Assembly: GCA_964615725.1 (NCBI GenBank)
Contig: CAZTPW010000002.1
Span: 5,656-69,655, forward strand
Length of the DNA stretch: 64,000 nt
Direction: 5' to 3'
Source: an uncultured Candidatus Saccharibacteria bacterium
Lineage (GTDB): Bacteria; Patescibacteriota; Minisyncoccia; Phycocordibacterales; CAZTPW01
Shown here: positions 1,425-32,777 of the stretch, one piece after another
Numbering within the stretch: the first letter of the stretch is position 1
Layout: each line of letters opens with the position of its first letter
Position numbers and translations under genes: made by a program
The notes under the pieces: generated by a model
Told to the model about the DNA's origin: nothing
The model's input: the letters and a program-made list of their open reading frames with translations, nothing else
The model's database searches: none

Positions 1425-1464
1425 CTTCGTATCGGCTCTGCGCTCGCACCTCTGAAAAATCACG

Positions 1465-1538
1465 TCCACCCTCTTGGATTCGAACCAAGGACCGCCGAGG
1501 TATAAGCTCGGTGCTCTAGCCAACTGAGCTAAGGGTGG
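1465..1538 (-). tRNA. tRNA-Ile, anticodon UAU (TAT)
   Basis: The minus-strand read folds as a canonical cloverleaf. Acceptor stem CCACCCT/AGGGTGG. D-arm TAGCTCAGTTGGCTAGAGC. Anticodon stem CCGAG/CTCGG with loop CTTATAC (U33, anticodon UAU, A37). T-arm CTTGG-TTCGAAT-CCAAG. Discriminator A. CCA is not encoded. Confidence 0.8.
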
Positions 1539-8897: not shown

Positions 8898-8952
8898 GAT
8901 ATTCACAGGCTTTGGTATATACCACTTTCCTTGACTGTACTATAATGGTGGG

Positions 8953-9564: not shown

Positions 9565-9565
9565 C

Positions 9566-10144: not shown

Positions 10145-10150
10145 AATTCT

Positions 10151-10447
10151 ATGAAAAATAATCTTTCTGCAATTGCATATTTTGTTCTCGGCGCGGTAGT
10201 TGCGTCTGTTATTGTTCTTTCTTCATCGAAGTCTTTTGCCCAGATTACGTCTACCAAACCAAGCGATCTTCGTGATTCTGATCGACGCACTCAGCTTATT
10301 CTCCAACAGCTTAAGTCTGTTGTGATGGATACGAATTTCTTTACATCTCCTCTCTACAAAAACCTCGAAGATTTCAGTGTTACTGTGCAGCAGGAACCAT
10401 TTAAACGAACTAACCCATTCGCTCCTATTGGAGTTGATGCAAACTAA
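10151..10447 (+). CDS. small secreted protein in the PilP position
   Basis: 98 aa with a signal/TM segment (IAYFVLGAVVASVIVLSS). Located between pilO and pilB. Confidence 0.45.
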   Translation: MKNNLSAIAYFVLGAVVASVIVLSSSKSFAQITSTKPSDLRDSDRRTQLILQQLKSVVMDTNFFTSPLYKNLEDFSVTVQQEPFKRTNPFAPIGVDAN

Positions 10448-10449
10448 GC

Positions 10450-12204
10450 ATGAATCCTCTCGAAGCCTTGCTTCAAAAAGGAATACTCACATCGGAACAA
10501 GCTACGGAAATTCAGAAGGAGATTACAGAAAGTGGCGCTTCGCTTGAATCTGTTTTGGCAAAAATGGGGATCGGCCCAGAAGTCCTTTTGTCTGCGAAGG
10601 GGGATTTTTACGGCATCCCTTATCGAGCTATTGGCAATGAACCTATCCCGTATGATGTACTCCGCTATGTACCACAGGAATCTGCCGATCATTATCACTT
10701 CACACCACTGGCGGTAAAAGACGGTGTGCTCGATGGGGGTATTGTTGACCCGGACAACATGGATGCGCGCGACGCCATCAGTTTTATTGCGTCGCGCGCC
10801 AACCTTCCCTTTAAAATTTTTCTTATTACCGAAGATGACTTCGAGCGAGCGATGAATTCATACAAGGGTATGACCGGTCAGGTCGACAGTGCTCTGAAAG
10901 AGCTCGACACAGAATCTTACACCCTTCCCAAAGAAGCTCAGGATGAAGTTTCAGAAGCAGTCAATGAAGTCGATCCATCACAGGAAAATCTTGGTATGGA
11001 GCCGACTCAGGGTGGTCGCATTATCGAAGACGCACCAGTCACCAAAATTGTGGCAACCATCCTCAACTATGCGAGTGAAGGTAGCGCGTCCGACATCCAC
11101 ATCGAACACATGGGGGAGAGTGTTCGTGTTCGATATCGAGTGGATGGTGTTTTGAATACCAGCCTTGTCCTTCCACCAAAAGTGCACTCAGCGCTCGTTG
11201 CACGTATCAAAATTCTTTCGCAGATGCGACTCGATGAAAAGCGAAAACCACAAGATGGCCGTTTTTCTGCAAAAATTAATACTCGCAAGATCGATTTCCG
11301 AGTTTCTACCTTCCCAGCATATTACGGTGAAAAAGTGGTGATGCGATTGCTCGATTCTACTCGAGGTGTGAAGGCGATCAACGACATGGGTCTCACCGAG
11401 CGAAATCTCAAGCTTATTAGAGAAGCAATCAAGAAACCCTACGGTCTTATCCTTATTTCAGGTCCTACTGGTTCCGGAAAATCAACAACTCTTTACTCTA
11501 TGCTCACTGAAGTCGATAAAGAGCAGAAAAACGTTTTGTCACTTGAAGACCCAGTTGAATACAATATTCCTGGTATGAACCAGTCTCAGGTTCGACCTGA
11601 AATCGGCTACACCTTTGCCAACGGTCTCCGAACAACACTCCGACAGGACCCAGACATTATCATGGTGGGAGAAATTCGAGACAAGGAAACTGCGCAGCTC
11701 GCCATCCAAGCGGCGCTCACAGGTCACCTTGTGCTTTCAACCATTCACACCAACAACGCAGCGGGTGTTATTCCTCGACTTGTAGACATGGGTATCGATC
11801 CATTCCTTATTGCGCCAACCCTCGTTCTCGCAATTGCACAGCGCCTTGCACGTAAGCTTGTTCCAAATACCGGCAAGCCGCTCAAGGTGGAAGGGCGAGT
11901 AAAAGACATGATTGATGCTGAGTTTAAAGATGTTCCAGAAGAATTCCGTAAAAAAGTCCCATGGTCAGATGTGGTCTATGAGGCGGTACCTACACCAGGC
12001 GCTCCGACGGGTACCAGTGGTCGTGTTGCGGTCATGGAGGTGATTGAAATGAGTCCAGAACTCGAGCGTGTTATTTTGAAAAACCCAATCGAAGATGAAA
12101 TCATGAAGGTGGCACGAGCGCAGGGTATGCTTACCATGCGGGAAGATGCTATGATAAAGGCATTCCAGAAAGTCATTCCAATTGAAGAAATTAACGGACT
12201 CTAA
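10450..12204 (+). CDS. pilB: type IV pilus assembly ATPase PilB (GspE family)
   Basis: N-terminal GSPII_E_N-like domain. Walker A ILISGPTGSGKSTT. Asp and His boxes (LRQDPDIIMVGEIRD; HLVLSTIHTNNA). 584 aa. Confidence 0.9.
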   Translation: MNPLEALLQKGILTSEQATEIQKEITESGASLESVLAKMGIGPEVLLSAKGDFYGIPYRAIGNEPIPYDVLRYVPQESADHYHFTPLAVKDGVLDGGIVDPDNMDARDAISFIASRANLPFKIFLITEDDFERAMNSYKGMTGQVDSALKELDTESYTLPKEAQDEVSEAVNEVDPSQENLGMEPTQGGRIIEDAPVTKIVATILNYASEGSASDIHIEHMGESVRVRYRVDGVLNTSLVLPPKVHSALVARIKILSQMRLDEKRKPQDGRFSAKINTRKIDFRVSTFPAYYGEKVVMRLLDSTRGVKAINDMGLTERNLKLIREAIKKPYGLILISGPTGSGKSTTLYSMLTEVDKEQKNVLSLEDPVEYNIPGMNQSQVRPEIGYTFANGLRTTLRQDPDIIMVGEIRDKETAQLAIQAALTGHLVLSTIHTNNAAGVIPRLVDMGIDPFLIAPTLVLAIAQRLARKLVPNTGKPLKVEGRVKDMIDAEFKDVPEEFRKKVPWSDVVYEAVPTPGAPTGTSGRVAVMEVIEMSPELERVILKNPIEDEIMKVARAQGMLTMREDAMIKAFQKVIPIEEINGL

Positions 12205-12217
12205 AAGAAACACTGCT

Positions 12218-12607
12218 ATGGCACAAGAACAAAAAACCTACAAAATACTTTTGGTTGATGATGATCATTTCCTCCTCAATATGTACTCAATCAAGTTCAA
12301 AGCATCAGGTTTTGATGTGGAAGTCGTCGCTGGCGCCGAGGAGGCTCTCTCAAAAATCAATGACGGCTATGCACCAGACGTCATGATGGTGGATGTGGTC
12401 ATGCCAGGTATGGATGGAATGACATTTCTTGAAAAAATCCGCAAGGAAAAGCTTATCCCAAAAACAAAAATCATCATGCTCTCAAACCAAAGCCAACCTC
12501 AGGACATCGATCGAGCAAAAGCACTCAACGTGGCCGGCTACATCGTAAAGGCAACCACGATCCCATCGGAGGTTGTAGCAGAGACGCTTCGCATTATTCA
12601 AGGATAA
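12218..12607 (+). CDS. CheY-like response regulator receiver protein (PilH-like)
   Basis: Receiver motifs KILLVDDD... DVVMPGMDG... with no output domain. Start at the ATG at 12218, just after the pilB stop. Embedded between pilB and pilT. Confidence 0.8.
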   Translation: MAQEQKTYKILLVDDDHFLLNMYSIKFKASGFDVEVVAGAEEALSKINDGYAPDVMMVDVVMPGMDGMTFLEKIRKEKLIPKTKIIMLSNQSQPQDIDRAKALNVAGYIVKATTIPSEVVAETLRIIQG

Positions 12608-12617
12608 ATAAACAATT

Positions 12618-13685
12618 ATGCACATTGATTACGCACAAGATTTGAATGACATTCTCTCCACGGTAGAAAAGGAGGGTGCTTCTGATATTCATATTGGAGA
12701 AGGGAAGCACCCCACTATGCGAGTATCAGGCTTCCTCATTCCTATGGTCAAAAAGCCTATCCTCACCAAGGAAATGATGCTTGGCTACGTAGATGTGCTT
12801 TTGAGTAAAGAGCAGAAGGAGCGTTTTTTCCAGTACAAAGAAATTGACGTTTCTTATGAGCATGAAAAGACTGAGCGATTCCGAGTCAACGGCTACTTCC
12901 AGCAGGGTCGGATTACGTTTGCGATGCGTCTCATTCCCAAGAAGATCAAAACACTCGCTGAACTCAACCTTCCTCCAGCACTTGAAATGTTTGCAGAAAA
13001 ACCTCAGGGCTTCTTCCTCGTAGTGGGTCCGGTAGGTCAGGGAAAGACCACAACGCTTGCAGCAATCATTGATCACATCAATCAAGAGCGAGCGGAGCAC
13101 ATTCTCACCATTGAAGACCCGATCGAATATATTTACGAACCAAAGAAGGCAATTATCAACCAGCGAGAAGTCGGTATTGATACCCATGACTTCCACACCG
13201 CCTTGAATGGTATGTTCCGCGAGGATATTGATGTATGTCTTCTTGGAGAAATGCGAGACCCAGAGACGATGGCGACTGCGGTGACTGCGGCAGAAACAGG
13301 ACACCTCGTATTCTCAACCCTTCACACCAACAACGCAGCTCAGACTATCAACCGTATCATCGACAGCTTCCCAGCACAGCAACAGGATCAGATCCGAGTG
13401 CAGCTCGCTTCATCGCTCACAGGTATTTTCTCCCAGCGTCTTATTCCTCGAGTATCAGGAGGACTCATTCCTGCGTATGAGCTTTTGATCAATAACAATG
13501 CCGTAGCAAACCTCATCCGAGAAAAGCGAACTCACGAAATCAACACTGTGATCGAGACAGGTCTCGAGCAGGGTATGATCAGCATGGAACGCTGCCTCGC
13601 TGACCTTGTGCGAGCGGGCGAGATTACGGTTGAGAACGCCTATCTCCACTCACAAAATTCAAAGACGCTTGAGCGAATGCTATAA
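12618..13685 (+). CDS. pilT: twitching motility ATPase PilT
   Basis: Walker A VVGPVGQGKTTT. His box GHLVFSTLHTNNAAQTINRIID. 355 aa, typical PilT/PilU retraction ATPase. Confidence 0.9.
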   Translation: MHIDYAQDLNDILSTVEKEGASDIHIGEGKHPTMRVSGFLIPMVKKPILTKEMMLGYVDVLLSKEQKERFFQYKEIDVSYEHEKTERFRVNGYFQQGRITFAMRLIPKKIKTLAELNLPPALEMFAEKPQGFFLVVGPVGQGKTTTLAAIIDHINQERAEHILTIEDPIEYIYEPKKAIINQREVGIDTHDFHTALNGMFREDIDVCLLGEMRDPETMATAVTAAETGHLVFSTLHTNNAAQTINRIIDSFPAQQQDQIRVQLASSLTGIFSQRLIPRVSGGLIPAYELLINNNAVANLIREKRTHEINTVIETGLEQGMISMERCLADLVRAGEITVENAYLHSQNSKTLERML

Positions 13686-13702
13686 TCTAAAGACTCCACA
13701 CT

Positions 13703-14914
13703 ATGCTATTTACATATAAAGGAATTGAAGGAAGCGGCACACCGGTACAGGGAAGTATCGAGGCTATTAATATTGATGTCGCTATTAGCTCGCTTCAAAA
13801 GCGTGGCTTCAGTATCACTACGATCAACCCTGTTGAAGCAAAGAGCGATTCTCTCCTTTCAAAGAACCTCACATTCCTTTCTCGAGTAAAAAACAAAGAT
13901 ATTGTCATCCTTTCTCGACAGATGTCGACGCTTTTTGGTGCGCAAGTCTCAGCACTTCGAGTGTTCCGACTTCTTGCTGGTGAGACAGAAAATCCCATTC
14001 TTCAAAAGACCCTCAACGAAGTCGCTGAAGATTTGCAAGGTGGTAGCGCTATTTCGAAAGCGCTTGCAAAGCATCCAAAAATCTTTTCAAGCTTCTATGT
14101 AAACATGGTCCGATCTGGTGAAGAGGCTGGTAAGCTCGACGAAATTCTTATTTACCTTGCTGACTACCTTGATCGAAGCTATGAAGTTACCTCAAAAGCG
14201 AAGAATGCCCTCATCTACCCAGCCTTTGTTGTGTTTACCTTCGTGATTGTGATGATTTTGATGCTCACGATCGTGATCCCAAACATCAGCAAAATACTTA
14301 CTGAATCTGGTCAAGAAATTCCTTTCTATACAAAAGTTGTCCTTGGTATTAGTGACTTCTTCGTCAATTTTGGTCCATGGCTTATTCCTGTGGTCTTGGT
14401 TGGAGGATTCTTTCTCTTCCGATATGCAAACACCGATCAAGGAAAAACAAACATTTCTCGACTCAAGATTACGGTTCCTTATGTAGGAAATCTCTATCGA
14501 AAGCTTTACCTGGCCCGAATCGCTGACAACATGAACACCATGCTGGTAAGTGCGATCCCCATCATCAAGGCACTCGAAATCACTTCAACGCTTGTGGGAA
14601 ATGCTGTCTACGAGAAGATTCTCAACGAAACGCTTGATGCGGTGAAGTCGGGAAGCTCGATGTCCGAAGCTCTTGGTCGCCACCCTGAAATTCCAGGCAT
14701 TATGATCCAAATGACCAAGGTAGGAGAGGAGACTGGTGAGCTTGGCGAGATTTTGAAGAGCCTCGCGAAGTTCTACAACCGTGAAGTTATCAATGCCGTC
14801 GACACCCTCGTCGACCTTATTGAGCCTGCCATGATCGTCTTTTTGGGCGTAGGCGTAGCTATCCTCCTCGCATCGGTCCTTATCCCTATCTACAACATCT
14901 CAACTGCTATCTAA
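13703..14914 (+). CDS. pilC: type IV pilus platform protein PilC (GspF family)
   Basis: 403 aa with two GspF repeats and three TM regions (e.g. ALIYPAFVVFTFVIVMILML). Confidence 0.85.
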   Translation: MLFTYKGIEGSGTPVQGSIEAINIDVAISSLQKRGFSITTINPVEAKSDSLLSKNLTFLSRVKNKDIVILSRQMSTLFGAQVSALRVFRLLAGETENPILQKTLNEVAEDLQGGSAISKALAKHPKIFSSFYVNMVRSGEEAGKLDEILIYLADYLDRSYEVTSKAKNALIYPAFVVFTFVIVMILMLTIVIPNISKILTESGQEIPFYTKVVLGISDFFVNFGPWLIPVVLVGGFFLFRYANTDQGKTNISRLKITVPYVGNLYRKLYLARIADNMNTMLVSAIPIIKALEITSTLVGNAVYEKILNETLDAVKSGSSMSEALGRHPEIPGIMIQMTKVGEETGELGEILKSLAKFYNREVINAVDTLVDLIEPAMIVFLGVGVAILLASVLIPIYNISTAI

Positions 14915-15074
14915 TATCCACAGGACCCCTATTTACAAGGCTTTTTGTACGATATAATACTTGAAGCTCTCAAGAAGAAGCAGACTTCCTGGCTATAGAC
15001 AGTAAGGGGTCGGTACTATTCTTCCGGGGTTAAAAATTATTCGAATAAAATCTTTTAGTAAGTAATATACGTAT

Positions 15075-15524
15075 ATGAAGAAAACATCACGAGGTTTTAC
15101 CCTTATTGAACTCTTGGTCGTGATTGCTATCATCGGTATCTTGGCTGGCGTTGTGCTCACAAACTTGAGCTCAGCTCGAGACAAGGCAAAGGTTAGCGCT
15201 GTGAAGGAAGCTATGAGTGGTATCCGAACCTCAATGGAGGACTACAACACTTCTGGTAACTATGGTGCTATTACTGATGTAGCTTCGGCTTGTACAGGTA
15301 CCAACGCGGGTGGAGGATTTGCTTCTAACGCAGTGGTAAATGCAATTGCAAACATTACTAACAACGGTGCCACAGTTATTGAGTGTACAGGTGATGCTGC
15401 AACAGCAAACGCATGGGCACTCTCTGTGACACTTCCTGGTTCAAACGGATCATGGTGTGTTGACTCAAGTGGTGCTGCCACATCAACAGTTGATACTGGT
15501 GATGATGGAGACTGCGGAGCGTAA
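15075..15524 (+). CDS. pilA: type IV major pilin (prepilin, N-terminal cleavage/methylation domain)
   Basis: Class III signal peptide: MKKTSRG|FTLIELLVVIAIIGILAG with the conserved G-1/F+1/E+5. 149 aa. Strong terminator immediately downstream. Confidence 0.85.
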   Translation: MKKTSRGFTLIELLVVIAIIGILAGVVLTNLSSARDKAKVSAVKEAMSGIRTSMEDYNTSGNYGAITDVASACTGTNAGGGFASNAVVNAIANITNNGATVIECTGDAATANAWALSVTLPGSNGSWCVDSSGAATSTVDTGDDGDCGA

Positions 15525-15542
15525 TCTACGCTTTGTAAAAGA

Positions 15543-15577
15543 AAAAAACCGTCCACAGGGCGGTTTTTTCTTTTGTG
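15543..15577 (+). terminator. rho-independent terminator after pilA
   Basis: aaaaaaaccgtccacagggcggttttttctttt: GC hairpin flanked by an A-run upstream and a T-run downstream. Confidence 0.8.
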
Positions 15578-15621
15578 TGATTTTGTTACAATAAGAGGGA
15601 ATTATTATTTACCTTTTTACT

Positions 15622-16173
15622 ATGAATATATTCCTATCAAGACGAAATAAAGGCTTCACCCTCATCGAGCTTCTTGTGGTGATCGGTATTATTGGTGTAT
15701 TGACCGCAATCGTCCTTCCAAACCTCATCAGTCCCCGCGCAAAATCTCGTGATGGAAAGCGTGTTGCTGATATCAAGCAGATTCAGCTCGCACTCGAGCT
15801 TTACGCTGATCGTAACTCAGGTAAATTCCCAGCTACAGATTCAGCAGGTCTTTCTGCTGCACTCACACCTACTTATATCCAAACACTACCGAAGGACCCA
15901 ACAACAGGTGCAAACTATCAGTATATTCCACGTGGTTCAAGCTCTTCATTGTGTTACGGCTACCACCTTGGTGCTGCTCTTGAAGAGGGGACAAATACCG
16001 CACTTCGTGAGGATGCAGATTCTGCGGTCAGTGTCGGTGGTTTTTGTGGACAATCCGTCTCTGATTTTGAAGGGACAAGTGCAACGGCAAGCAATCTTTG
16101 CGATTCAACCGCCGGAGTTGCCCAAGGCCAATCAAACCCAACAGAAAAGTGTTATGACGTCGTAAACAATTAA
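15622..16173 (+). CDS. type IV pilin-like protein (second prepilin)
   Basis: Prepilin leader MNIFLSRRNKG|FTLIELLVVIGIIGVLTAIVL. 183 aa. Confidence 0.8.
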   Translation: MNIFLSRRNKGFTLIELLVVIGIIGVLTAIVLPNLISPRAKSRDGKRVADIKQIQLALELYADRNSGKFPATDSAGLSAALTPTYIQTLPKDPTTGANYQYIPRGSSSSLCYGYHLGAALEEGTNTALREDADSAVSVGGFCGQSVSDFEGTSATASNLCDSTAGVAQGQSNPTEKCYDVVNN

Positions 16174-16176
16174 TCT

Positions 16177-17037
16177 ATGGAATATATCATCGCGCTCATC
16201 GTATTTGCTTTCGGCTCAATCATAGGAAGTTTTCTGAATGTTGTTGCTCTCCGCTACAACACCGGCATGACACTCGGTGGTCGCTCGGCGTGTTTTTCTT
16301 GCGGTAAAAAACTTTCATGGCACGAACTCTTTCCGATTCTAAGCTACCTTTTTCAGTTGGGCCGTTGTCGTGGATGTAAAAGCAAAATTTCTCTTCAGTA
16401 TCCGATGGTAGAGGCGCTTACCGGACTCCTTTTTGTGGCAGTCTTCTTTAAAGAGCTTGGTGTGGGCTTTGATATGATTCAGGCAACATACGGCGCCATC
16501 GTACTTGCTGCATTTGTTGTGATCGTGTTCTCACTTCTTATTGTCATTTCTGTCTATGACCTTCGCCATACGATTATTCCAAACGGCATGGTCTATTCAT
16601 TCATCGCTCTTTCTTTTATCGGTCTTTTTATATCAACATCACCGACGCTCTCATTCAATGTCCCATCATATGCTGAGCTCGCATCGGGCCCCATCTACGC
16701 ACTCATCTTTGCTTCACTTTGGTTTTTCTCACGAGGAAAGTGGATTGGCTTAGGTGATGCAAAGTTGGCGCTCGGTATCGGATGGCTCCTGGGGCTTGTG
16801 GGCGGCGGGTCCGCACTTATGTTTGCGTTCTGGCTTGGTGCACTTGTGGGAATTGTTCTTATTATCGGTACAAAAGTTGGAGTACTTATCACCGGTCGAA
16901 AGATCGACATTCATAGCGAAATCCCATTTGCGCCATTTATGATTCTCACTGCATTCTTCGTTTACTACACAGGATTTACCATGGTTGATTTCCTCAATCA
17001 TCTCCAAGCATTCCTTACGCTCGTTACGTGGTCATAG
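16177..17037 (+). CDS. pilD: prepilin peptidase PilD (A24 family aspartic peptidase/N-methyltransferase)
   Basis: N-terminal tetra-Cys CxxC...CxxC zinc region (CFSCGKK... CRGCKSK) and multiple TM segments. Confidence 0.85.
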   Translation: MEYIIALIVFAFGSIIGSFLNVVALRYNTGMTLGGRSACFSCGKKLSWHELFPILSYLFQLGRCRGCKSKISLQYPMVEALTGLLFVAVFFKELGVGFDMIQATYGAIVLAAFVVIVFSLLIVISVYDLRHTIIPNGMVYSFIALSFIGLFISTSPTLSFNVPSYAELASGPIYALIFASLWFFSRGKWIGLGDAKLALGIGWLLGLVGGGSALMFAFWLGALVGIVLIIGTKVGVLITGRKIDIHSEIPFAPFMILTAFFVYYTGFTMVDFLNHLQAFLTLVTWS

Positions 17038-17062
17038 GTAGGGGGTTGATTCAATTATATTC

Positions 17063-17713
17063 ATGAAATTTCTTCATTCAAAACCACATACCCAAAAAGG
17101 CTTCACCCTCTTCGAGCTTTTGGTTTCGATTGGAATTTTCACACTCCTCACAACAACGCTTCTTGTTAAAAACTCACAGTATAAAGGGAATACCGTCATC
17201 ACCAATCTCGCATATGAAATGGCACTTATCGTCCGTCAGGCTCAAGTCTACGGAATCAATGTACGTCAAGTTGGTACGGGCAACTTCGATTATGCGTATG
17301 GTGTGCACTTCAGCTTTGATCCTGCCAACAAGGACTCAGACGGGCATGTGACCAGTTTCAAACTTTTTTCTGATAGTCACCCAACTCCTGTCGATGGTAA
17401 GTATGACCACCCCAACGAAGATGTCGAGCTTTTCAATCTCTCGCCCGGCAACTGGATCGAAAATATATGTCTCGATGTTGGTGGGGTTCCGAAGTGTGTA
17501 AAGGATGGTGATTTTACTACACTCGATGTGATGTTTAAGCGTCCAGACCCATCAGCTATCTTTTTCACATCGGGCGGTACTACCAACTTTTCTTATGCCT
17601 CAACCGCTCACGTGTACATCCTCTCAAGTAAGGGGATCTGTCGACAGATCGATATTAACAAAACTGGCCAAATTTCAGTGCCGGACGTAGACCCATCATT
17701 CACATGTTCTTAA
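17063..17713 (+). CDS. minor pilin / pseudopilin (prepilin-type N-terminal domain)
   Basis: Leader ...HTQKG|FTLFELLVSIGIFTLL. 216 aa. Confidence 0.7.
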   Translation: MKFLHSKPHTQKGFTLFELLVSIGIFTLLTTTLLVKNSQYKGNTVITNLAYEMALIVRQAQVYGINVRQVGTGNFDYAYGVHFSFDPANKDSDGHVTSFKLFSDSHPTPVDGKYDHPNEDVELFNLSPGNWIENICLDVGGVPKCVKDGDFTTLDVMFKRPDPSAIFFTSGGTTNFSYASTAHVYILSSKGICRQIDINKTGQISVPDVDPSFTCS

Positions 17714-18324
17714 ACCACTTCTCTCCAAATCAGCGATATGGTCAGAAAGGCTTCACGCTCATTGAGGTGATTGTTTCGATCTCGATTTTTATTGTCGTTA
17801 TGGTTGTTGCGGCTGGGGCAGTACTTTCGATCATTGATGCCAATCGAAAATCTCATGCTACAAAATCTGTGATCGATAGCCTCAACTTTATTCTTGAGGA
17901 TTTCGCGCGAAACGTGGTGACGGGTTCTCTTTATTCATGCAGTACAACGCCTTCGTCGGGTACTATTTCAGGTGCGTTACCTACGGATAATTGTCCAACC
18001 GGATGGACCAACAATTTCTCATTCAAGGACCAAAACGGTAAAGTGGTTGTGTATTCATATGATCCAATCAGCCACCAAATTACTGTGTCGCACGATGGAG
18101 GAGTTTACCTTCCGGTCAATTCACCGGAGGTCTACATCACCTCATTTGATATTTATGTGATGGGGGTTGGTCGTCAGTCTCCAAACCCTGAGCAGCAGCC
18201 TCGTGTATTCGTAACGATCCGTGGCTACGGGGCATTTGGTGATCCAACCAATCAGAAATACCGCACTGAGTTTAACGTTCAGACATCAATTACCCAGCGT
18301 AATATCGAACGCCTTGAACCATAA
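17704..18324 (+). CDS. minor pilin / pseudopilin (GspH/FimT-like)
   Basis: Leader ...YGQKG|FTLIEVIVSISIFIVVM. 206 aa. 10-bp overlap with the previous gene. Confidence 0.7.
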   Translation: MFLNHFSPNQRYGQKGFTLIEVIVSISIFIVVMVVAAGAVLSIIDANRKSHATKSVIDSLNFILEDFARNVVTGSLYSCSTTPSSGTISGALPTDNCPTGWTNNFSFKDQNGKVVVYSYDPISHQITVSHDGGVYLPVNSPEVYITSFDIYVMGVGRQSPNPEQQPRVFVTIRGYGAFGDPTNQKYRTEFNVQTSITQRNIERLEP

Positions 18325-18328
18325 TCCT

Positions 18329-18934
18329 ATGAAAATTTCCTTTCCAAAAATGAATACCAAAAAAGGCTTCACCCTGATTGAAACATTCATTGCGATTTCT
18401 ATTTTAATGATTGCTGTGGTTGGTCCAATCACTATTGCTCAGAGAAGTCTTTCATCTGCAAAATTTTCACGAGATCGAGTGATTGCATACTACTTGGCAC
18501 AGGATGCTGTTGAGTATATTCGAAGTATTCGAGACGACTCCTACCTTCAGGGTAAATATTGGGACGATGCTGATGGTTTCTTTTCTCGAATCTCTCAATG
18601 TCGCAGCAATTCCACTGTTGCTACCCAGTGGTGTTATCTCGATACTCAGCGCACGTATGATGAAAACAAATCTCTATTCCCGGGAGCCTCAAACCCTGCA
18701 TCATTCCCAAATCTCAACTACAATACTGTCACTGGGGTATATAATTATGACAACCTGTCGTCCGATAACCAACCAACTTCATTTACTCGATCGATAAGTA
18801 TTCGTAATGCTTCCACACAAAATGGTGAAGATGAGATTGTGATTCAGGTTGATGTGCATTGGGAGTCAGGTCTCTTTGGAAGTGGTGGGGGATCATTTAC
18901 TACATCAGAGCATCTTCTTGATTGGCAAATATAA
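18329..18934 (+). CDS. minor pilin / pseudopilin (PilV/PilW-like)
   Basis: Start trimmed to the ATG at 18329 (MKISFPKMNTKKG|FTLIETFIAISILM), which follows the upstream stop. Confidence 0.7.
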   Translation: MKISFPKMNTKKGFTLIETFIAISILMIAVVGPITIAQRSLSSAKFSRDRVIAYYLAQDAVEYIRSIRDDSYLQGKYWDDADGFFSRISQCRSNSTVATQWCYLDTQRTYDENKSLFPGASNPASFPNLNYNTVTGVYNYDNLSSDNQPTSFTRSISIRNASTQNGEDEIVIQVDVHWESGLFGSGGGSFTTSEHLLDWQI

Positions 18935-18936
18935 GT

Positions 18937-19479
18937 ATGAAATATCTTTTTTCACAATTTCATAGTCTCGGAAAAGGTGGCCAAAAAGGTTTTACCGTAC
19001 TTTACGCTGTGCTGATAGCAAGTCTCCTCCTGTCGATTGGTCTCGGTATTTACTCTGTATCGCTTCGTGACTTCATTCTCGCATCATCAGCGAGCGAATC
19101 TCAGAAAGCAATTTATGCCGCCGATAGTGGAGTAGAATGCGTCTTGTACTGGAACATCTATGAACTTTTTTCACCACCAGCGCACGCACCAGCGGGGACA
19201 CCGTGGGTAGGAGATGCATATTGTGCAAACACCAAAATAAACTCAAACCCAGATTCTGGATGGACTGTCGTACAGACACAAAATACTGCAACTTCAACCT
19301 ACACTATTCACTTTGGCTCAACCGATGAAGCTCCGTGTGCTGTTATTAATGTAGGGAAATGGAATACTGAAGCAGCAACAACCACCATCTATACTCTTTT
19401 TGAATCTCGTGGGTATAATACCTGCAGAGTAGAAAACCCTCGCCGAGTAGAACGCGGTTTGAAAGGTGCATTCCACTAA
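18937..19479 (+). CDS. PilX-like minor pilin (prepilin-like N-terminus)
   Basis: Start at the ATG at 18937 (MKYLFSQFHSLGKGGQKG|FTVLYAVLIASLLL). Confidence 0.6.
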   Translation: MKYLFSQFHSLGKGGQKGFTVLYAVLIASLLLSIGLGIYSVSLRDFILASSASESQKAIYAADSGVECVLYWNIYELFSPPAHAPAGTPWVGDAYCANTKINSNPDSGWTVVQTQNTATSTYTIHFGSTDEAPCAVINVGKWNTEAATTTIYTLFESRGYNTCRVENPRRVERGLKGAFH

Positions 19480-27172: not shown

Positions 27173-27247
27173 GCCAATGTAGCTCAGTTGGTAGAGCACG
27201 TCCATGGTAAGGACGAGGTCATCGGTTCAATCCCGATCATTGGCTCC
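27173..27247 (+). tRNA. tRNA-Thr, anticodon GGU
   Basis: Acceptor GCCAATG/CATTGGC. Anticodon stem CGTCC/GGACG with loop ATGGTAA. T-arm ATCGG-TTCAATC-CCGAT. Encoded CCA. A TTGAAA-N17-TATGAT promoter lies at ~27117-27146. Confidence 0.85.
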
Positions 27248-27257
27248 AGTAAATTGT

Positions 27258-27333
27258 GCCAAAGTAGCTCAGTTGGTAGAGCACAGCTTTCGTAAAGCTG
27301 GGGTCGCGAGTTCGATCCTCGCCTTTGGCTCCA
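27258..27333 (+). tRNA. tRNA-Thr, anticodon CGU
   Basis: Acceptor GCCAAAG/CTTTGGC. Anticodon stem CAGCT/AGCTG with loop TTCGTAA. T-arm GCGAG-TTCGATC-CTCGC. Encoded CCA. A hairpin plus T-run terminator lies at ~27360-27390. Confidence 0.85.
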
Positions 27334-27430
27334 CTACGAAGATCATAGTCACCATAAGCAAAACTTTTCAACAGTTTTGTGTTTTTCTCGTACATGAGCG
27401 TGATAAAATAAGTGGAAATTATAATCCCTT

Positions 27431-30400
27431 ATGCAAAAAAATATTTTTGAGAAGATAGTAATGTTCGGCGCACCCCTTACTGTCCTCGCTCTCCTTACTG
27501 TTGTTGTGACTCAGTTTCAGGATGCGCGACTCGTTCGTCGTTCTACCGCTTCGATTGTCGATGCTGGTGGCACCTCACTCGTACTCCATTATCCATTTGA
27601 TAGCTACACTTCTGGAGTAACAACACTTCAGGATAGCTCTGGAAATGGTATCACCGCTTCATTTCTCGGTACTTTACCAACTTCTATCGCAGGCAATGTG
27701 GGTAGTGGTGCACTCTCAATGAAGAGTGGCGGTTTCTTGCGAGCCAATTCATCACTTGGAATCACTAGTTATCCTTTCACAATCTCAGCGTGGGTACGAC
27801 AGCCGTCGAGCGTAAAAGGCCTTACACCAATTGCAGGCTTCTATGACACGACCACTGGTACCGACATGAAGGGTATTAGTATTAACAATTCAGGAAAAGC
27901 AGGAATCTTCTTTTCAAATACTGAGGGATATGAGGGAACATCACCTTGGCTGCGAAATAATGCATGGCATCATATCGTAGGAATTTTCACATCGACAGGT
28001 ATATCACTCTATGTTGACGGGACTTCAGTCGCAAACCTCCCATCCCAATTTACATTTCCAACAACACTTCAGAAATTCACAGTAAGTGGTTTTGATCGAT
28101 ATGCTGCGGACATTGTTGACTATCCATACACAGGCGACATTGATGACGTACGAGTATATAAAACAGCACTTACAGCAGATGACGTGCAGGCACTCTTTAG
28201 CCTCGGTCAGTACACCGGAGGTGGTACTGGTGGTCCTGACACGCAAGCACCAACCATTTCTATCACTTCTCCAACGACTGGCTCATCACCAACTGGCTCC
28301 GTAACACTTACCGCTCAAGCGACAGACAATGAAGGGGTTGCTGGTGTACAGTTTTATATCAATGGCGAAAAGTACGGCCAGGAAATTCTTTCTGCGCCAT
28401 ACTCGGTATCATGGAACACCACAACTGTTTCAAATGGTACCTATACAATTACTGCGGTGGCGAAGGATTATAGTGATAACACCACCACATCAAGCGCCGT
28501 ATCAGTGTCTGTCACCAACCCGGTCATAGCGCCAAAGCCTCATAAAGTCATTAGTTGGAACGCTCCGATTGGAATCCCAGAACCATCATTTGGTATTCGG
28601 GAAGATGTAAGTCACTTCATTTTGCGCAGTGGTGAGACATGTGCAACACAACCACAAAAATGCTTCGACTATGGAAATGGTCAGCAGGCTTACAAGCTCA
28701 ATTCAGTCGGTGAGCCATATACCCACTATGTTGAACCTACCAATCCCAATAGTACAGATTCTGATAACCCATTCGGAAGTCCTGCAAAGCCACGTGTGAC
28801 GCTACCAACACTTTTTACTCCCGGAATGATTGTAGAGCTTCATGGAACCTACAATAAAGCACGAGTACCAGTACACTACTACACATCAGGAGGTGGTACG
28901 AAGGAGCGCCCAGCATTTATCCGTGGGCTTGATACGAATGGTCAGAAAGCAGTCTTTGCAGATTTGAACTTCGAGATTGCCTCATCGTATTTGATTGTTG
29001 AAAATATTGAATTCCGTAATACTGCACCTCGATTCTATCCTTGGGCGCCAGGTCTTTCTATCCATCACAACGCATTACGCTACTGCGACCTTCATACCGG
29101 CACCGTGGCGGCAAGCTATACCCCTGGAATTACTGTCAGCAATATCGTGATATTCGCAAATAACATTCAGACTGACAAGAATGTGTTTGATTATGACGCA
29201 CCTGGAGAAATTTATGAGAATGATATAAACGGTGTCTACATAGGACGGCAATCAGAGGATGTGTGGGTGCTCGACAATACTATCCACGACCTCCCGGGTG
29301 ACTCTGTGGGCGGGGGACATGATGCTGATTATACTGCGAAGCGATACTATATCGGGCGAAATGATCTCTATCGAACGGGCGAAAACGCAATCGATATTAA
29401 GGAAGTTGATACCGTGATTGTGTCTCAGAATAAAATGCACGACTTCAAAGGTGGCTCAGAGGGTTCAGATGGTACTGCAACGGTCGTTCACTACGGTCCT
29501 ACCTATTCACCAAAAAATGTTTGGTTCCTCTTCAACGAAATTTATAATGCTTCTGATACTGGATTCCAAGTCGGCGGCGATCAACTCTTTGACGTTAGAT
29601 TTATTGGTAATATTGTACGCAATATTCACAATTCATCCGGGAATGCATGGGGTTATCGAGCATGGAACTCAAATGACGTATATCTCGTTAACAACCTCTT
29701 CTACGATGTCGACAATGGAATTTACTCAGATACCGGTGATGGCTCAAAACTCACCGTCGAGAACAACATCATTGCCAAGGTAAAAGATGGCGGTTATCAT
29801 GTGTCGCTTGCAGGATCAAGTCATATGAATCTCTCTCAGTTTGCGAATAATATTTTCTATCAGCCGGGTGGCAACGCTCGAATTGCATGGGGAGGCGTAA
29901 ATATTATCAACCTCACACTCTACGGTTCTCTCCTTAATGTCGGTCAATTTATGAGCTCAACAGGAAAGTGTGTGGGATGTCTTGAAGCAGATCCAAAGTT
30001 CAACAATAGCGCTCAAAATGATTTCAGTCTCCGACAGGATTCTCCAGCAATCAACGCTGGTAGCTCAGCGGTCATTGATCGACTTGCTGCTCTCTATCCA
30101 ATCCCAGGTATTTCTATCAAAAAAGATATTTCTGGTGGTACACGACCAGCGTCGGGTGTTTGGGATATTGGCCCTCATGAATACCTCGGCACCATTGATT
30201 CGACTCAGAAAAATCTTACTGTTGTTCTTGGTGGACAGGGGCAAGGTAGTGTTACCGTAACAGCATCGGGTTCAGTCCTTCAAACTGCTGAATCATCTGC
30301 GGCATCGAGCTATACCGTGTCAGGGGTCGTGACGTTGACCGCAGTACCTGAGCCGGGGTCAACGTTTGGTGGATGGCAAGGTGCCTCATGTACTGGTACT

Positions 30401-31402
30401 ACTTGTGTTATCTCACTCGTGTCTGATCTATCGGTGGTCGCACTCTTCAATGCAAATCAAGGTAGTGGACCTGCAATTATTTCACCTAGTGTTACCGTTG
30501 GTGCTGGACGAGCTACGATTTATTGGACTACCGACGTGGCAGCAACTGGCCAGGTGCAGTATGGACTTACCACATCATATGGAAATGTATCTCCACAAAG
30601 CACAGCAAAAACAGTCCACAGTCACACACTCACCGGTCTCAACCGACTCACCACGTATCACTACCGAATTGTCGTAACTTCTGCTGATGGCACAACACAG
30701 TCTGCAGATGCGGTATTTACAACTCCAAATAGTCCACCTCCTCCTGTTGTAGGGGCACCTTTTGTCCCAGGTAATGGCACAACAACACCTCCAGTTGTCA
30801 TTACTCCATCAAGTACACCGGTAGTGTCTCCATTTACCCGAAACCTTCAGCTTGGTGCGCAGGAGCCACAGGTCGCAGTCCTCCAGGATGTGCTCGTTAA
30901 GGAAAAGGTTCTCGATGCAGGTGCCTTTAAAAAGGGAATCTTTGATACCAAGACCGAAAAAGCAGTTCAAGCATTCCAGAAAAAATACGATATTGTGCGT
31001 TCAGGAAAACCACAAACTACAGGATATGGTTCAACCGATGCAAAAACTCGTTCGATCCTCAATGAAATTGCTAGTCAGCAAGCCCAGACCAACGCCATTG
31101 TTCAAAGTATCCCTCGAACATTCACTTTTACACGATCGCTTCAGATTGGCTCGGTTGGTGAGGATGTTCGATATCTCCAAATATTTTTAAATACCCACAA
31201 TTTCCCTGTGGCGAAAAGTGGTGCTGGCTCACGTGGCAGAGAGGGAACTGTCTATGGAACAGCAACAGCTCAGGCCTTGGCGAAGTTCCAAGAATTATAC
31301 AAGGATGAAATTCTAACACCAATGGGTAAAAAGAAAGGAGACGGTGTGTTTGGAAAGACAACACTTGCAAAGGTAAATGCTTTGCGAGCAGCGGGTAAGT
31401 AG
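27431..31402 (+). CDS. 1323-aa multidomain cell-surface protein (LamG-like, Ig-like, parallel beta-helix, FN3, 2x peptidoglycan-binding domains)
   Basis: N-terminal signal/TM (FGAPLTVLALLTVVV). A concanavalin/LamG-like region (ISAWVRQPSS...DDVRVYKTALTADDV). An Ig-like region (TGGPDTQAPTISITSPTTG...YTITAVAKDYSDN). Repetitive N-rich right-handed beta-helix repeats (NNIIAKV, NNLFYDV, etc.). An FN3-like region (TTYHYRIVVTSADGTT). Two C-terminal PG_binding_1-like repeats (FTRNLQLGAQEPQVAVLQDVL...; FTRSLQIGSVGEDVRYLQIFL...). Confidence 0.8.
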   Translation: MQKNIFEKIVMFGAPLTVLALLTVVVTQFQDARLVRRSTASIVDAGGTSLVLHYPFDSYTSGVTTLQDSSGNGITASFLGTLPTSIAGNVGSGALSMKSGGFLRANSSLGITSYPFTISAWVRQPSSVKGLTPIAGFYDTTTGTDMKGISINNSGKAGIFFSNTEGYEGTSPWLRNNAWHHIVGIFTSTGISLYVDGTSVANLPSQFTFPTTLQKFTVSGFDRYAADIVDYPYTGDIDDVRVYKTALTADDVQALFSLGQYTGGGTGGPDTQAPTISITSPTTGSSPTGSVTLTAQATDNEGVAGVQFYINGEKYGQEILSAPYSVSWNTTTVSNGTYTITAVAKDYSDNTTTSSAVSVSVTNPVIAPKPHKVISWNAPIGIPEPSFGIREDVSHFILRSGETCATQPQKCFDYGNGQQAYKLNSVGEPYTHYVEPTNPNSTDSDNPFGSPAKPRVTLPTLFTPGMIVELHGTYNKARVPVHYYTSGGGTKERPAFIRGLDTNGQKAVFADLNFEIASSYLIVENIEFRNTAPRFYPWAPGLSIHHNALRYCDLHTGTVAASYTPGITVSNIVIFANNIQTDKNVFDYDAPGEIYENDINGVYIGRQSEDVWVLDNTIHDLPGDSVGGGHDADYTAKRYYIGRNDLYRTGENAIDIKEVDTVIVSQNKMHDFKGGSEGSDGTATVVHYGPTYSPKNVWFLFNEIYNASDTGFQVGGDQLFDVRFIGNIVRNIHNSSGNAWGYRAWNSNDVYLVNNLFYDVDNGIYSDTGDGSKLTVENNIIAKVKDGGYHVSLAGSSHMNLSQFANNIFYQPGGNARIAWGGVNIINLTLYGSLLNVGQFMSSTGKCVGCLEADPKFNNSAQNDFSLRQDSPAINAGSSAVIDRLAALYPIPGISIKKDISGGTRPASGVWDIGPHEYLGTIDSTQKNLTVVLGGQGQGSVTVTASGSVLQTAESSAASSYTVSGVVTLTAVPEPGSTFGGWQGASCTGTTCVISLVSDLSVVALFNANQGSGPAIISPSVTVGAGRATIYWTTDVAATGQVQYGLTTSYGNVSPQSTAKTVHSHTLTGLNRLTTYHYRIVVTSADGTTQSADAVFTTPNSPPPPVVGAPFVPGNGTTTPPVVITPSSTPVVSPFTRNLQLGAQEPQVAVLQDVLVKEKVLDAGAFKKGIFDTKTEKAVQAFQKKYDIVRSGKPQTTGYGSTDAKTRSILNEIASQQAQTNAIVQSIPRTFTFTRSLQIGSVGEDVRYLQIFLNTHNFPVAKSGAGSRGREGTVYGTATAQALAKFQELYKDEILTPMGKKKGDGVFGKTTLAKVNALRAAGK

Positions 31403-31430
31403 GGGGTTGGTGAAAGTAAATTATTGACAA

Positions 31431-31477
31431 AAAGCTGAATTGGGGTATTGTTATACCGATTCAGCTTTTTTTGATTT
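31431..31477 (+). terminator. rho-independent terminator after the large surface-protein gene
   Basis: aaagctgaat...attcagcttt stem enclosing a GGGTAT/ATACC sub-hairpin, followed by a T7 run. Confidence 0.75.
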
Positions 31478-31883
31478 CGCGCAAGGAGGTGTTCCTCCAC
31501 ATGCCGCATAGGGTTGCGCCTTTGCGAAGACGGGAGTTGTTAACCCGTATCGGTTACCTCCTTGCGCTTCTTCCTTTATGCCACCCCTTGGCGGTGTCCA
31601 GATACATTCCTCGCCACCAACCCAACCTCCCATGGTTGAGTTCCGCGACGAACGGCCCTGCTCACGTCAAGAACAGGACTATCTGTGACACCCCTTGGGG
31701 TTGGCAGTTCATAAGGGAAAATTCTCCGCCCTTTGGTGGGGACAATAGACCGTGCTTGGAAACGTAGCCCCGATCAATTCGGCGTACAGCTGCTGAGGCA
31801 ACCTCGGCACCCAAGGACTCATTGTTCTCACTAGGGCGGTTTTTGTTTTATGCTATTTTGATATAGTATTTTCACATACATCC

Positions 31884-32777
31884 ATGGAGACAAATCCTCG
31901 CCATACCAAAATCAACGAACGAATCGCCGAAATCGAAGCACTTATGAATAGTGCTGATTTTTGGCAGAATCCACACAAGGCACAAGCAATGATAAAGGAA
32001 ATGCAGGACCTCAAAACCGAGCTTGAAGGGGGAGGTAAGTATGATAAAGGCGATGCGATCGTTACGATTTTTTCAGGGGCTGGTGGCGACGATGCCGAAG
32101 ATTTTTCAAGTATGCTTTTCCGTATGTACCGCAAGTATTCCGAAAAACGAGGCTGGTCACTTTCACTCATTCATGAAAACCAAAATGATCACGGCGGTTT
32201 TCGCAATGTCACTTTTGAAATTTCAGGAAAATCAGTATATGGCACCCTCAAAAACGAATCAGGCGTCCATCGCTTGGTCCGAATCTCCCCATTCAATGCA
32301 AAGCAGCTTCGGCACACATCGTTTTCAATGGTAGAAGTGATTCCAAAGTTTGAAAAAACAGACTCTGCTATCGAAATTCCCGAGAAAGACCTCGAAGTGA
32401 CTATGTCACGAGCAGGAGGTCCTGGCGGACAAAACGTCAACAAACGCGAAACTGCGGTACGAATTGTCCATCTTCCCACAAAACTTTCCGTGCATGTCAC
32501 CTCAGAGCGCTCACAGGCTCAAAACAAAGAAAAAGCCCTCGATATTCTCAAAGCAAAACTCTATAAAATGCAGGAGGAAGAGCGTATCGCAAAAGAAAAG
32601 GGAATGTATATTTCAAAAACGACTAGCATAGAATGGGGCAATCAAATTCGCTCGTATGTTCAGCACCCCTACAAGATGGTCAAAGACCACCGCACCGATG
32701 TAGAAACCTCAGATGTGGAGGCGGTCCTCGAGGGCGATATCGACCTCTTTCTCGACGCTGAAAAGAATTTGGGCTAA
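31884..32777 (+). CDS. prfB: peptide chain release factor 2 (no programmed +1 frameshift, short N-terminus)
   Basis: SPF tripeptide (RISPFNAKQ) and GGQ motif (RAGGPGGQNVNK). 297 aa continuous ORF. No CUU-UGA-C frameshift site upstream. Confidence 0.85.
   Translation: METNPRHTKINERIAEIEALMNSADFWQNPHKAQAMIKEMQDLKTELEGGGKYDKGDAIVTIFSGAGGDDAEDFSSMLFRMYRKYSEKRGWSLSLIHENQNDHGGFRNVTFEISGKSVYGTLKNESGVHRLVRISPFNAKQLRHTSFSMVEVIPKFEKTDSAIEIPEKDLEVTMSRAGGPGGQNVNKRETAVRIVHLPTKLSVHVTSERSQAQNKEKALDILKAKLYKMQEEERIAKEKGMYISKTTSIEWGNQIRSYVQHPYKMVKDHRTDVETSDVEAVLEGDIDLFLDAEKNLG

What the first reader, a model, noticed from the sequence alone, without database searches (positions are those of the whole stretch)
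27431..31402. 1323-aa surface protein combining LamG, Ig-like, pectate-lyase-type beta-helix, FN3 and two peptidoglycan-binding modules
The largest gene in the window encodes a secreted, cell-wall-anchored multidomain protein. Its two C-terminal PG_binding_1-like repeats tether it to peptidoglycan. It also has an adhesion/carbohydrate-binding N-terminus (LamG, Ig) and a long Asn-rich right-handed beta-helix, typical of polysaccharide lyases, hydrolases and adhesins. In a small-genome, likely episymbiotic bacterium it is a strong candidate host-attachment or host cell-wall-degrading factor.
Basis: partly seen in the sequence, partly recalled or inferred. Interest (0 to 1): 0.55.

Follow-up and report, generated by a model that had tools for sequence, protein, structure and literature searches.

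The report
Modular wall-tethered beta-helix surface protein
The largest gene in this window really does encode a 1323-residue exported protein of a Patescibacteria (Paceibacteria-type) bacterium. It joins lectin-like, Ig-like, beta-helix and peptidoglycan-binding modules and is a lineage-specific accessory gene, but its enzyme-like core belongs to a large uncharacterised family, so its substrate and any role with a host are unproven.

Summary

The module belongs to a large uncharacterised secreted family (1,868 clusters at E<=1e-30). Members are fused to T9SS, dockerin, PKD or FN3 modules. Besides an Asn ladder, the family has near-invariant charged residues (E524, R550, D598, D624, K657), all kept here.

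The genome is Paceibacteria-like. About 85 related loci place tRNA-Thr next to the release-factor gene without this gene, so it is an accessory single-gene insert.

Most likely it is a wall-tethered glycan-cleaving or glycan-binding factor. A host-directed role is plausible but untested. It is a new member of a known kind, of modest interest.

The parts
27431..31402 (+). Complete gene, 1323 codons plus stop
   Evidence: ORF list and translation. An identical protein, P0001, is in the NCBI-derived collection.
27443..27517 (+). N-terminal hydrophobic segment (aa 5-29) after a Lys-containing n-region. Interpreted as a Sec signal or uncleaved membrane anchor.
   Evidence: Kyte-Doolittle scan: this is the only window above 1.7 in the protein, with a maximum of 2.36 at aa 9-27. 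No clear AxA cleavage site is visible by eye. No signal-peptide predictor was available.
27755..28189 (+). Laminin_G_3 / concanavalin-A-like lectin domain (aa 109-253)
   Evidence: Pfam PF13385, E 3.3e-19, 70 bits. NCBIfam TafC C-terminal region, E 3.5e-10.
28250..28456 (+). Big_7 bacterial Ig-like domain (aa 274-342)
   Evidence: Pfam PF17957, E 5.3e-19. This domain caused most hits in the whole-protein search.
28535..30205 (+). Core module (aa 369-925): conserved N-terminal extension (PIGIPxPxFG motif), N-cap, right-handed parallel beta-helix of about 11 rungs with an Asn ladder, and C-cap
28997..29401 (+). Stretch holding the near-invariant charged residues E524, R550, D598, D624 and K657. 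This is the putative active or binding site.
   Evidence: Conservation over 217 family domains: E524 98%, R550 99%, D598 94%, D624 88%, K657 99%. All five are kept in this protein. The spacing of about one rung (26 aa) is read from the sequence. The 3-D geometry could not be inspected.
30002..30184 (+). C-terminal cap of the helix (aa 858-918), choice-of-anchor-Q-type motif DPxF...SPAI..G...D..G..R...DIG..E
   Evidence: NCBIfam NF041518, E 3.8e-4, below its cut-off. The same stretch gives the match to PDB 9rx2. P855, S871, D899, R905, D912 and E917 are conserved.
30251..30457 (+). Flg_new_2 / divergent InlB B-repeat domain (aa 941-1009)
   Evidence: Pfam PF18998: 25.9 bits against a cut-off of 23.6 when scanned alone, E 4e-4 in the whole protein. 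It follows the core in many family members.
30506..30724 (+). FN3-like domain (aa 1026-1098)
   Evidence: Pur_ac_phosph_N, 27.9 bits against a cut-off of 30; fn3, 18 bits. It aligns colinearly with the FN3 of P0009.
30725..30832 (+). Pro/Thr/Val-rich linker (aa 1099-1134)
   Evidence: Read from the translation.
30863..31012 (+). PG_binding_1 domain 1 (aa 1145-1194)
   Evidence: Pfam PF01471, 29.2 bits against a cut-off of 23.
31157..31300 (+). PG_binding_1 domain 2 (aa 1243-1290)
   Evidence: Pfam PF01471, 25.1 bits against a cut-off of 23.
31429..31476 (+). Intrinsic-terminator-like hairpin and T-run directly after the stop codon
   Evidence: Inverted repeat I2: 15-nt arms, 93% complementary, 12-nt loop, followed by TTTTTTT.
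27334..27430 (+). Upstream spacer between tRNA-Thr(cgt) and the start codon. It holds a hairpin plus T-run (27359-27386, likely the tRNA terminator) and TATAAT at 27415-27420.
   Evidence: Sequence read directly; tRNA positions. Promoter function is inferred only.

Best explanation
The gene encodes an accessory, exported envelope protein of a Paceibacteria-type (Patescibacteria/CPR) bacterium.

**Shown.** The protein is a string of modules: hydrophobic N-terminus, LamG lectin-like domain, Ig-like spacer, a 555-aa right-handed beta-helix module, an InlB-B-repeat, an FN3-like spacer, a Pro/Thr linker and two PG_binding_1 domains.

**Inferred.**
- The N-terminus takes it through Sec and may keep it in the membrane.
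- The two C-terminal PG_binding_1 domains hold it non-covalently on peptidoglycan.
- The LamG domain acts as a carbohydrate-binding module.
- The beta-helix core is the working part. It would be a glycan-cleaving enzyme (lyase or hydrolase) of a large, uncharacterised family, acting on an extracellular, probably acidic, polysaccharide.
- The active site would be built from the near-invariant residues E524, R550, D598, D624 and K657 on successive rungs.

Because relatives lack the gene at this position, it is a niche or partner-specific factor rather than part of core envelope biogenesis.
For: -
- The core family is large and exclusively fused to secretion or carbohydrate-type modules: T9SS sorting domain, type I dockerin, PKD, FN3, LamG, Flg_new_2.
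- Charged non-ladder residues are 88-99% conserved across 217 domains from many phyla, and all are kept here. This argues for a site under functional constraint rather than a mere scaffold.
- The gene is absent from the tRNA-Thr/release-factor slot in close relatives and in 80 further loci. It has its own terminator.
- A colinear homologue, P0009, sits in a cluster of LamG...PG_binding_1 proteins in another CPR-like contig. A Saccharibacteria MAG has LamG-core-FN3-Flg_new_2.
- Laminin_G_3 has been described as a carbohydrate-binding module (Sakka et al. 2019, as cited in PMC10066038).
Against: - No specific enzyme-family HMM matches. Only the generic Beta_helix, DUF5123 and NosD models hit.
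- PDB sequence matches are confined to the N-cap and C-cap.
- Genomic neighbourhoods of family members give no substrate hint: no PUL or sugar-utilisation genes.
- No expression or biochemical data exist.
Confidence: 0.5

Rival explanations
1. It is a non-catalytic adhesin. The beta-helix, LamG and Ig/FN3 modules form a rigid stalk and lectin head that bind a partner cell or surface. The protein is held on the cell by the N-terminal anchor and/or the PG_binding_1 domains.
Against: Five charged residues are near-invariant across phyla. Fusion of the same core to dockerins and T9SS tails in free-living polysaccharide degraders is more typical of enzymes than of adhesins, whose binding surfaces usually vary.
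Confidence: 0.3
2. It acts on the cell's own envelope. It would be a peptidoglycan-associated structural or remodelling protein (autolysin-like or secondary-wall-polymer processing) that works with the nearby division genes ftsE/ftsX.
For: It has two PG_binding_1 domains, which also occur in wall hydrolases such as SleB (weak NCBIfam hit). ftsE and ftsX lie about 1.4 kb and 2.0 kb downstream.
Against: Relatives keep release factor-ftsE-ftsX but lack this gene, so it is not part of that conserved unit. It has its own terminator. No peptidoglycan-hydrolase domain (amidase, lysozyme, NlpC/P60, M23) was found.
Confidence: 0.12
3. It is a decaying or non-functional mosaic left by recombination among surface-protein genes, with no current role.
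For: It is a singleton at 90% identity. Its identity to P0009 is mosaic: 72% in the N-extension against 31% in the helix.
Against: The 1323-codon frame is intact, all family-conserved residues are retained, and every domain is complete.
Confidence: 0.04

Closest known systems
PL9 pectate lyase Pel9A (PDB 1ru4) and the wider pectate-lyase-fold clan (PL1/3/6/9, GH28, GH136)
   Different: Identity is 14%, and no PL or GH family HMM matches. The module is about 150 aa longer than Pel9A and has a family-specific N-terminal extension (PIGIPxPxFG). Catalytic geometry and Ca2+ binding are untested.
Uncharacterised 'right-handed parallel beta-helix repeat-containing protein' family (e.g. Cellulophaga algicola Celal_3597, P0139)
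   Same: The core is a true sequence-level family member: 30-47% identity over 92-100% of the core, with the same motifs. It is often followed by Flg_new_2, as here.
   Different: Most members are stand-alone proteins of 550-800 aa with a T9SS, dockerin or PKD tail. Here the core is embedded between LamG/Big_7 and FN3/PG_binding_1 modules.
P0009 (JGI metagenome, 1386 aa) and the LamG...PG_binding_1 giant proteins of Patescibacteria
   Same: The architecture is the same from end to end, 34% identical over 99% of the length. Neighbours in that contig repeat the LamG-N-terminus and PG_binding_1-C-terminus scheme.
   Different: The genomic location differs (between gatB and murB/secA). The helix belongs to a different subfamily (31% identity), while the N-extension is 72% identical.
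Gram-positive surface proteins with non-covalent wall-binding modules (PG_binding_1-bearing hydrolases)
   Same: It has C-terminal tandem PG_binding_1 domains after a Pro/Thr linker.
   Different: No recognised peptidoglycan-hydrolase catalytic domain is present, and there is no LPXTG, SLH or LysM.

Membership tests
Pectate-lyase-fold superfamily (right-handed parallel beta-helix) | Right-handed three-sheet parallel beta-helix with stacked Asn ladder | tested here: met
PL9 / PL6 / PL1 polysaccharide lyases | Sequence membership (family HMM or significant full-length similarity) | tested here: not met
   There are no Pectate_lyase hits. Chondroitinas_B gives E 0.24 on the query and hits 1 of 40 family members at 5e-4. 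PDB profile matches to PL6 are limited to the N-cap, profile positions 103-173.
PL9 / PL6 / PL1 polysaccharide lyases | Ca2+-binding acidic cluster plus a Lys/Arg Bronsted base facing one cleft | tested here: inconclusive
   Candidates D598, D624, E524, R550 and K657 are near-invariant.
GH136 lacto-N-biosidase | Sequence membership and the catalytic Asp pair | tested here: not met
   GH136 is the Foldseek top hit, but at 14-15% identity and TM 0.4-0.5. The profile match to 6kqs covers only positions 63-174.
PG_binding_1 (PF01471) | Score at or above the Pfam gathering cut-off | tested here: met
   The two domains score 29.2 and 25.1 bits against a cut-off of 23.
PG_binding_1 (PF01471) | Actual binding to peptidoglycan | not testable with these tools
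   This needs a sacculus pull-down.
Laminin_G_3 (PF13385) | Score at or above the gathering cut-off | tested here: met
   70 bits against 27.6.
Big_7 (PF17957) | Score at or above the gathering cut-off | tested here: met
   69.1 bits against 24.1.
FN3 (PF00041 / PF16656) | Score at or above the gathering cut-off | tested here: inconclusive
   27.9 bits against 30 for PF16656, and 18.1 against 25 for PF00041. The single-sequence AF2 model of the C-terminal part failed with pLDDT 35. The homologous segment in the L002 protein passes at 36.3 bits.
Flg_new_2 / InlB B-repeat (PF18998) | Score at or above the gathering cut-off | tested here: met
   25.9 bits against 23.6 when scanned alone. This is borderline.
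Sortase-anchored (LPXTG) surface proteins | C-terminal LPXTG, hydrophobic stretch and basic tail | tested here: not met
   A regex finds no LPXTG-like motif, and there is no C-terminal hydrophobic segment.
Type IV pilins | N_methyl prepilin signal (G|F/M-T-L-x-E) | tested here: not met
   There is no N_methyl hit. The N-terminus MQKNIFEKIVMFGAPL lacks the motif.

The most novel reading that the evidence does not exclude
The 555-aa core (PIGIPxPxFG extension plus a beta-helix with E524/R550/D598/D624/K657) defines a new carbohydrate-active enzyme family, probably a lyase for an acidic polysaccharide. That family is widespread in secreted proteins of many phyla. This Paceibacteria protein would be a wall-tethered version used to open or feed on the surface glycans of a partner cell.
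Probability: 0.3. Interest if true: 0.6.

Novelty: new member of a known kind. Interest (0 to 1): 0.35.

Why it matters
Patescibacteria have small genomes and are thought to depend on other cells, yet how most of them touch or exploit partners is unknown. This gene is a concrete candidate: accessory, exported and enzyme-like. Its core also flags a large family (at least 1,868 clusters at 50% identity) with no specific Pfam, NCBIfam or solved-structure assignment. One biochemical characterisation would therefore annotate thousands of proteins. On present evidence, however, it is one more modular surface protein of a familiar type, and its function is inferred rather than shown.

Tried and rejected
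- **Whole-protein homologue search.** It was swamped by Big_7 repeats. Only P0009 was a real full-length relative, so I re-searched with the core alone.
- **The search for related loci with the 40-sequence alignment.** It failed because no stretch was conserved enough. I repeated it with 7 sequences. The window's own genome was not among the GTDB representatives.
- **The look-up of encoding contigs for P0001.** The protein is not on record.
- **afdb50 fold library.** The library was unavailable.
- **BFVD viral fold search.** It gave only generic tailspike and beta-helix hits at 9-15% identity.
- **tblastn of the core against 50,697 phage records.** No match, so a phage-depolymerase origin is not supported.
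- **Neighbourhoods of family members** in Cellulophaga, a Gammaproteobacterium, Bacteroidales and Ruminiclostridium. None showed polysaccharide-utilisation loci, so there is no substrate hint.
- **A distant flavobacterial relative, L013.** It gave only T9SS-tail matches in the PDB.
- **Literature searches** for 9RX2, Celal_3597, Patescibacteria + beta-helix, Parcubacteria + PG_binding_1, and CPR + concanavalin. Nothing specific turned up.
- **Single-sequence AF2 of the C-terminal 398 aa.** It failed with pLDDT 35.
- **Mobile-element origin.** No flanking direct repeats, no tRNA-end duplication and no integrase were found, so this is not supported.
- **Functional link to ftsEX.** Rejected on synteny.
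Full report

Yes. The ORF 27431..31402 on the + strand is 1323 codons with an ATG start, and it is the longest ORF in the window. An identical protein is already in the NCBI-derived collection, on a 73-kb contig (P0001). It is a singleton at 90% identity.

Pfam supports these domains:

| Domain | Residues | Score |
|---|---|---|
| Laminin_G_3 | 109-253 | E 3e-19 |
| Big_7 | 274-342 | E 5e-19 |
| Beta_helix | 701-829 | 28 bits in the whole protein; 33 bits on the core alone |
| PG_binding_1, copy 1 | 1145-1194 | 29.2 bits against a cut-off of 23 |
| PG_binding_1, copy 2 | 1243-1290 | 25.1 bits against a cut-off of 23 |
| FN3-like | 1026-1098 | just under the cut-off in this protein (27.9 against 30); the corresponding segment of the Saccharibacteria homologue passes |

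One is an InlB-B-repeat/Flg_new_2 domain at aa 941-1009. The other is the choice-of-anchor-Q-type cap that closes the helix at aa 858-918.

The only strongly hydrophobic segment is aa 5-29, and there is no LPXTG motif. A hairpin with a T-run follows the stop codon.

**2. What is the central module?**

Searching aa 369-920 alone gave 193 homologues. Most cover 92-100% of the module at 30-47% identity. An exhaustive profile search found 1,868 clusters (at 50% identity) with E<=1e-30 and 11,983 with E<=1e-10. Many are proteins with several copies.

Members come from Bacteroidota (for example Cellulophaga algicola Celal_3597), Chloroflexota, Acidobacteriota, Ruminiclostridium, Burkholderiaceae and Saccharibacteria. 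They carry T9SS sorting domains, type I dockerins, PKD, FN3, LamG or Flg_new_2 modules, so all are secreted proteins.

No specific Pfam or NCBIfam model describes the module. Only the generic Beta_helix, DUF5123 and NosD models hit.

With a 40-sequence alignment, AlphaFold2 gave a very confident model (pLDDT 94.2, pTM 0.94).
- Foldseek ranks GH136 lacto-N-biosidases first (E 5e-10), then PL9 and PL6.
- Identities are 7-20% throughout.
- Sequence-profile matches to PDB chains touch only the N-cap (PL6, GH136) or the C-cap (9rx2, an unpublished 'parallel beta-helix repeat protein').

**3. Is it enzyme-like?**

I aligned 217 family domains from 211 proteins to the query. Two sets of conserved residues stand out.
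- **Asn ladder** (structural): N577, 616, 644, 667, 702, 727, 755, 779, 807.
- **Near-invariant charged residues:** E524 (98%), R550 (99%), D598 (94%), D624 (88%), K657 (99%). S665, W612, W698 and the N-terminal motif P379-G-I-P-x-P-x-F-G388 are also conserved.

E524 and R550, and likewise D598 and D624, lie 26 residues apart, about one helical rung; K657 follows D624 by 33. All five are kept in the window protein.

From my own knowledge, acidic residues on successive rungs followed by a Lys or Arg is the arrangement in Ca2+-dependent lyases (PL1, PL6, PL9), and GH28 hydrolases have similar conserved Asp and Arg/Lys motifs. I could not inspect coordinates, so the geometry remains an inference.

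Conservation of this kind across phyla, together with dockerin-fused members, makes a catalytic or at least specific glycan-binding site more likely than a passive stalk.

**4. Whose gene is it, and is it core or accessory?**

The window also carries a full type IV pilus cluster: pilM, pilB, pilT, pilC and prepilin peptidase. Its other genes are housekeeping ones.

Six relatives were located through LigA. They share the order pilus genes, ligA, gatC, gatA, tRNA-Met x2, tRNA-Asp. Four of them (L021, L022, L026, L027) continue to the release-factor gene, and three of these reach ftsE within the fetched stretch. In those four, tRNA-Thr is followed directly by the release-factor gene, and there is no large gene between them.

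Eighty further loci were anchored on the release factor.
- About 50 of 63 usable loci have tRNA-Thr just upstream of the release factor.
- None has the beta-helix core within 6 kb.
- Only L051 (a Big_7 ORF) and L090 (a PG_binding ORF) carry related modules there.

The window segment 27334-31476 is therefore a single-gene insertion with its own terminator, placed in a variable slot next to tRNA-Thr. No flanking repeats or integrase were found.

**5. Relatives with the same architecture.**

P0009 (1386 aa, JGI metagenome) is colinear from N-terminus to C-terminus and 34% identical. Identity is mosaic: 72% in the first 65 residues of the core, 31% in the helix, and 43-49% in Big_7, Flg_new_2 and FN3.

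P0009 lies in a run of LamG-bearing genes between gatB and murB/secA:
- a 1334-aa protein with LamG, beta-helix and PG_binding_1;
- a 695-aa protein with two LamG domains;
- a 270-aa pilin-like protein with N_methyl and LamG;
- a 2306-aa protein with LamG, PKD, Flg_new_2 and PG_binding_1.

A Saccharibacteria MAG has a 1287-aa protein with LamG, core, FN3 and Flg_new_2. It is followed by a 2027-aa protein with LamG, Big_7 and DUF4962.

So 'LamG head, variable payload, wall-binding tail' is a recurring design in Patescibacteria, and the window gene is one instance of it.

**6. How it most likely works.**

*Shown:* the module order, the fold of the core, family membership of the core, the conserved residues, and the gene's accessory status.

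*Inferred:*
- Sec export through the N-terminal hydrophobic segment, possibly as an uncleaved anchor.
- Non-covalent attachment to peptidoglycan through the two PG_binding_1 domains, reached by a Pro/Thr linker.
- LamG acting as a carbohydrate-binding module (Sakka et al. 2019, cited in PMC10066038).
- The beta-helix cleaving or gripping an extracellular polysaccharide.

Whether the peptidoglycan and the glycan belong to the cell itself or to a partner cannot be decided here. Large surface proteins of ultra-small bacteria are commonly proposed to be adhesins or surface-glycan degraders (PMC10066038), but that is a hypothesis in the literature too.

My estimates are 0.5 for a wall-tethered glycan-active enzyme, 0.3 for a non-catalytic adhesin, 0.12 for a role on the cell's own wall and 0.04 for a non-functional mosaic.

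**7. Novelty and verdict.**

The finding is real and the domain reading is good, but this is a new member of a known kind of protein. The most interesting aspect is the core family: it is large, secreted, sharply conserved, and lacks any specific family or structure assignment that I could find. That is worth a biochemical test, but it is not specific to this locus. Interest is 0.35.

**8. Side observation.**

The 411 nt between the gene's terminator and the release-factor gene (31473-31883) fold far better than shuffled controls: z is -8.1 on the + strand and -6.6 on the - strand. No Rfam match was found.

Many relatives have a gap of 230-530 nt at the same place. Most of these are also strongly structured (z -4 to -10) and several of those examined end in a terminator-like hairpin. 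They show no detectable sequence similarity to the window element, nor mostly to each other, and have no Rfam family. I could not explain this.

Noticed in passing
window 31473-31883 (+): A 411-nt non-coding stretch lies between the big gene's terminator and the release-factor gene. It is GC-enriched (53% against about 45%). Its MFE is -168.6 kcal/mol, with z = -8.1 against dinucleotide shuffles on the + strand and -6.6 on the - strand. It contains a 12-bp long-range helix (31479-31490 / 31556-31567) and ends in a T-run. There is no Rfam hit at E<=1, and ARAGORN does not call it a tmRNA. It may be an unannotated structured RNA.
   Followed up: partly
L022 18345-18704; L038 2429-2900; L039 1752-2281; L104 5715-6000; L088 3028-3394 and others: In related Paceibacteria-like contigs the gap between tRNA-Thr and the release factor falls mainly into two size classes: 2-70 nt or 230-530 nt, with a few larger. 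Most of the long gaps are strongly structured (z -4 to -10), and several end in a terminator-like hairpin. They share no detectable sequence similarity with the window element, nor mostly with each other, and have no Rfam family.
   Followed up: partly
window 27173-27333 and 31884; L021, L022, L026, L027, L029-L108: The junction between tRNA-Thr and the release-factor gene is a variable slot in this lineage. Different relatives hold nothing, an umuD/dinB-like pair (just upstream of the tRNA-Thr genes), an AP-endonuclease gene, a Big_7 ORF (L051) or a PG_binding ORF (L090) there.
   Followed up: partly
window 7692-19479: A complete type IV pilus gene cluster is present: pilM 7692, pilB 10450, pilT 12618, pilC 13703, prepilin peptidase 16177 and several small pilin-sized ORFs. 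It lies directly upstream of ligA, in an order conserved in all six relatives examined.
   Followed up: partly
P0009 against window 28544-28738 (aa 372-436): Identity to the only full-length homologue is mosaic. The first 65 residues of the core are 72% identical (FGIREDVSHFILRSGETC is identical), while the beta-helix proper is 31% identical. This suggests module-level recombination or unusually strong constraint on the N-terminal extension.
   Followed up: partly
P0009 contig (JGI 3300071358, no DNA held): This contig has a cluster of five LamG-bearing genes, including a 270-aa protein that combines a prepilin N_methyl signal with LamG. LamG may therefore also be displayed on pili in these bacteria.
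   Followed up: no
window 1464-1538 (-): A tRNA-Ile with anticodon TAT (UAU) is present, which from my own knowledge is uncommon in bacteria. Two tRNA genes with anticodon CAT lie at 24375 and 24569.
   Followed up: no
window 31884-32777 (+): The class-I release factor is short, at 297 aa. Its PCRF match starts at profile position 85 of 194, so part of the usual N-terminal domain seems to be missing. Relatives are similar at 277-310 aa.
   Followed up: no
L004 6157-9557: A Bacteroidales MAG carries two tandem paralogues of the core module (553 and 555 aa, 31% and 41% identical to the query), followed by a T9SS-tailed protein.
   Followed up: no
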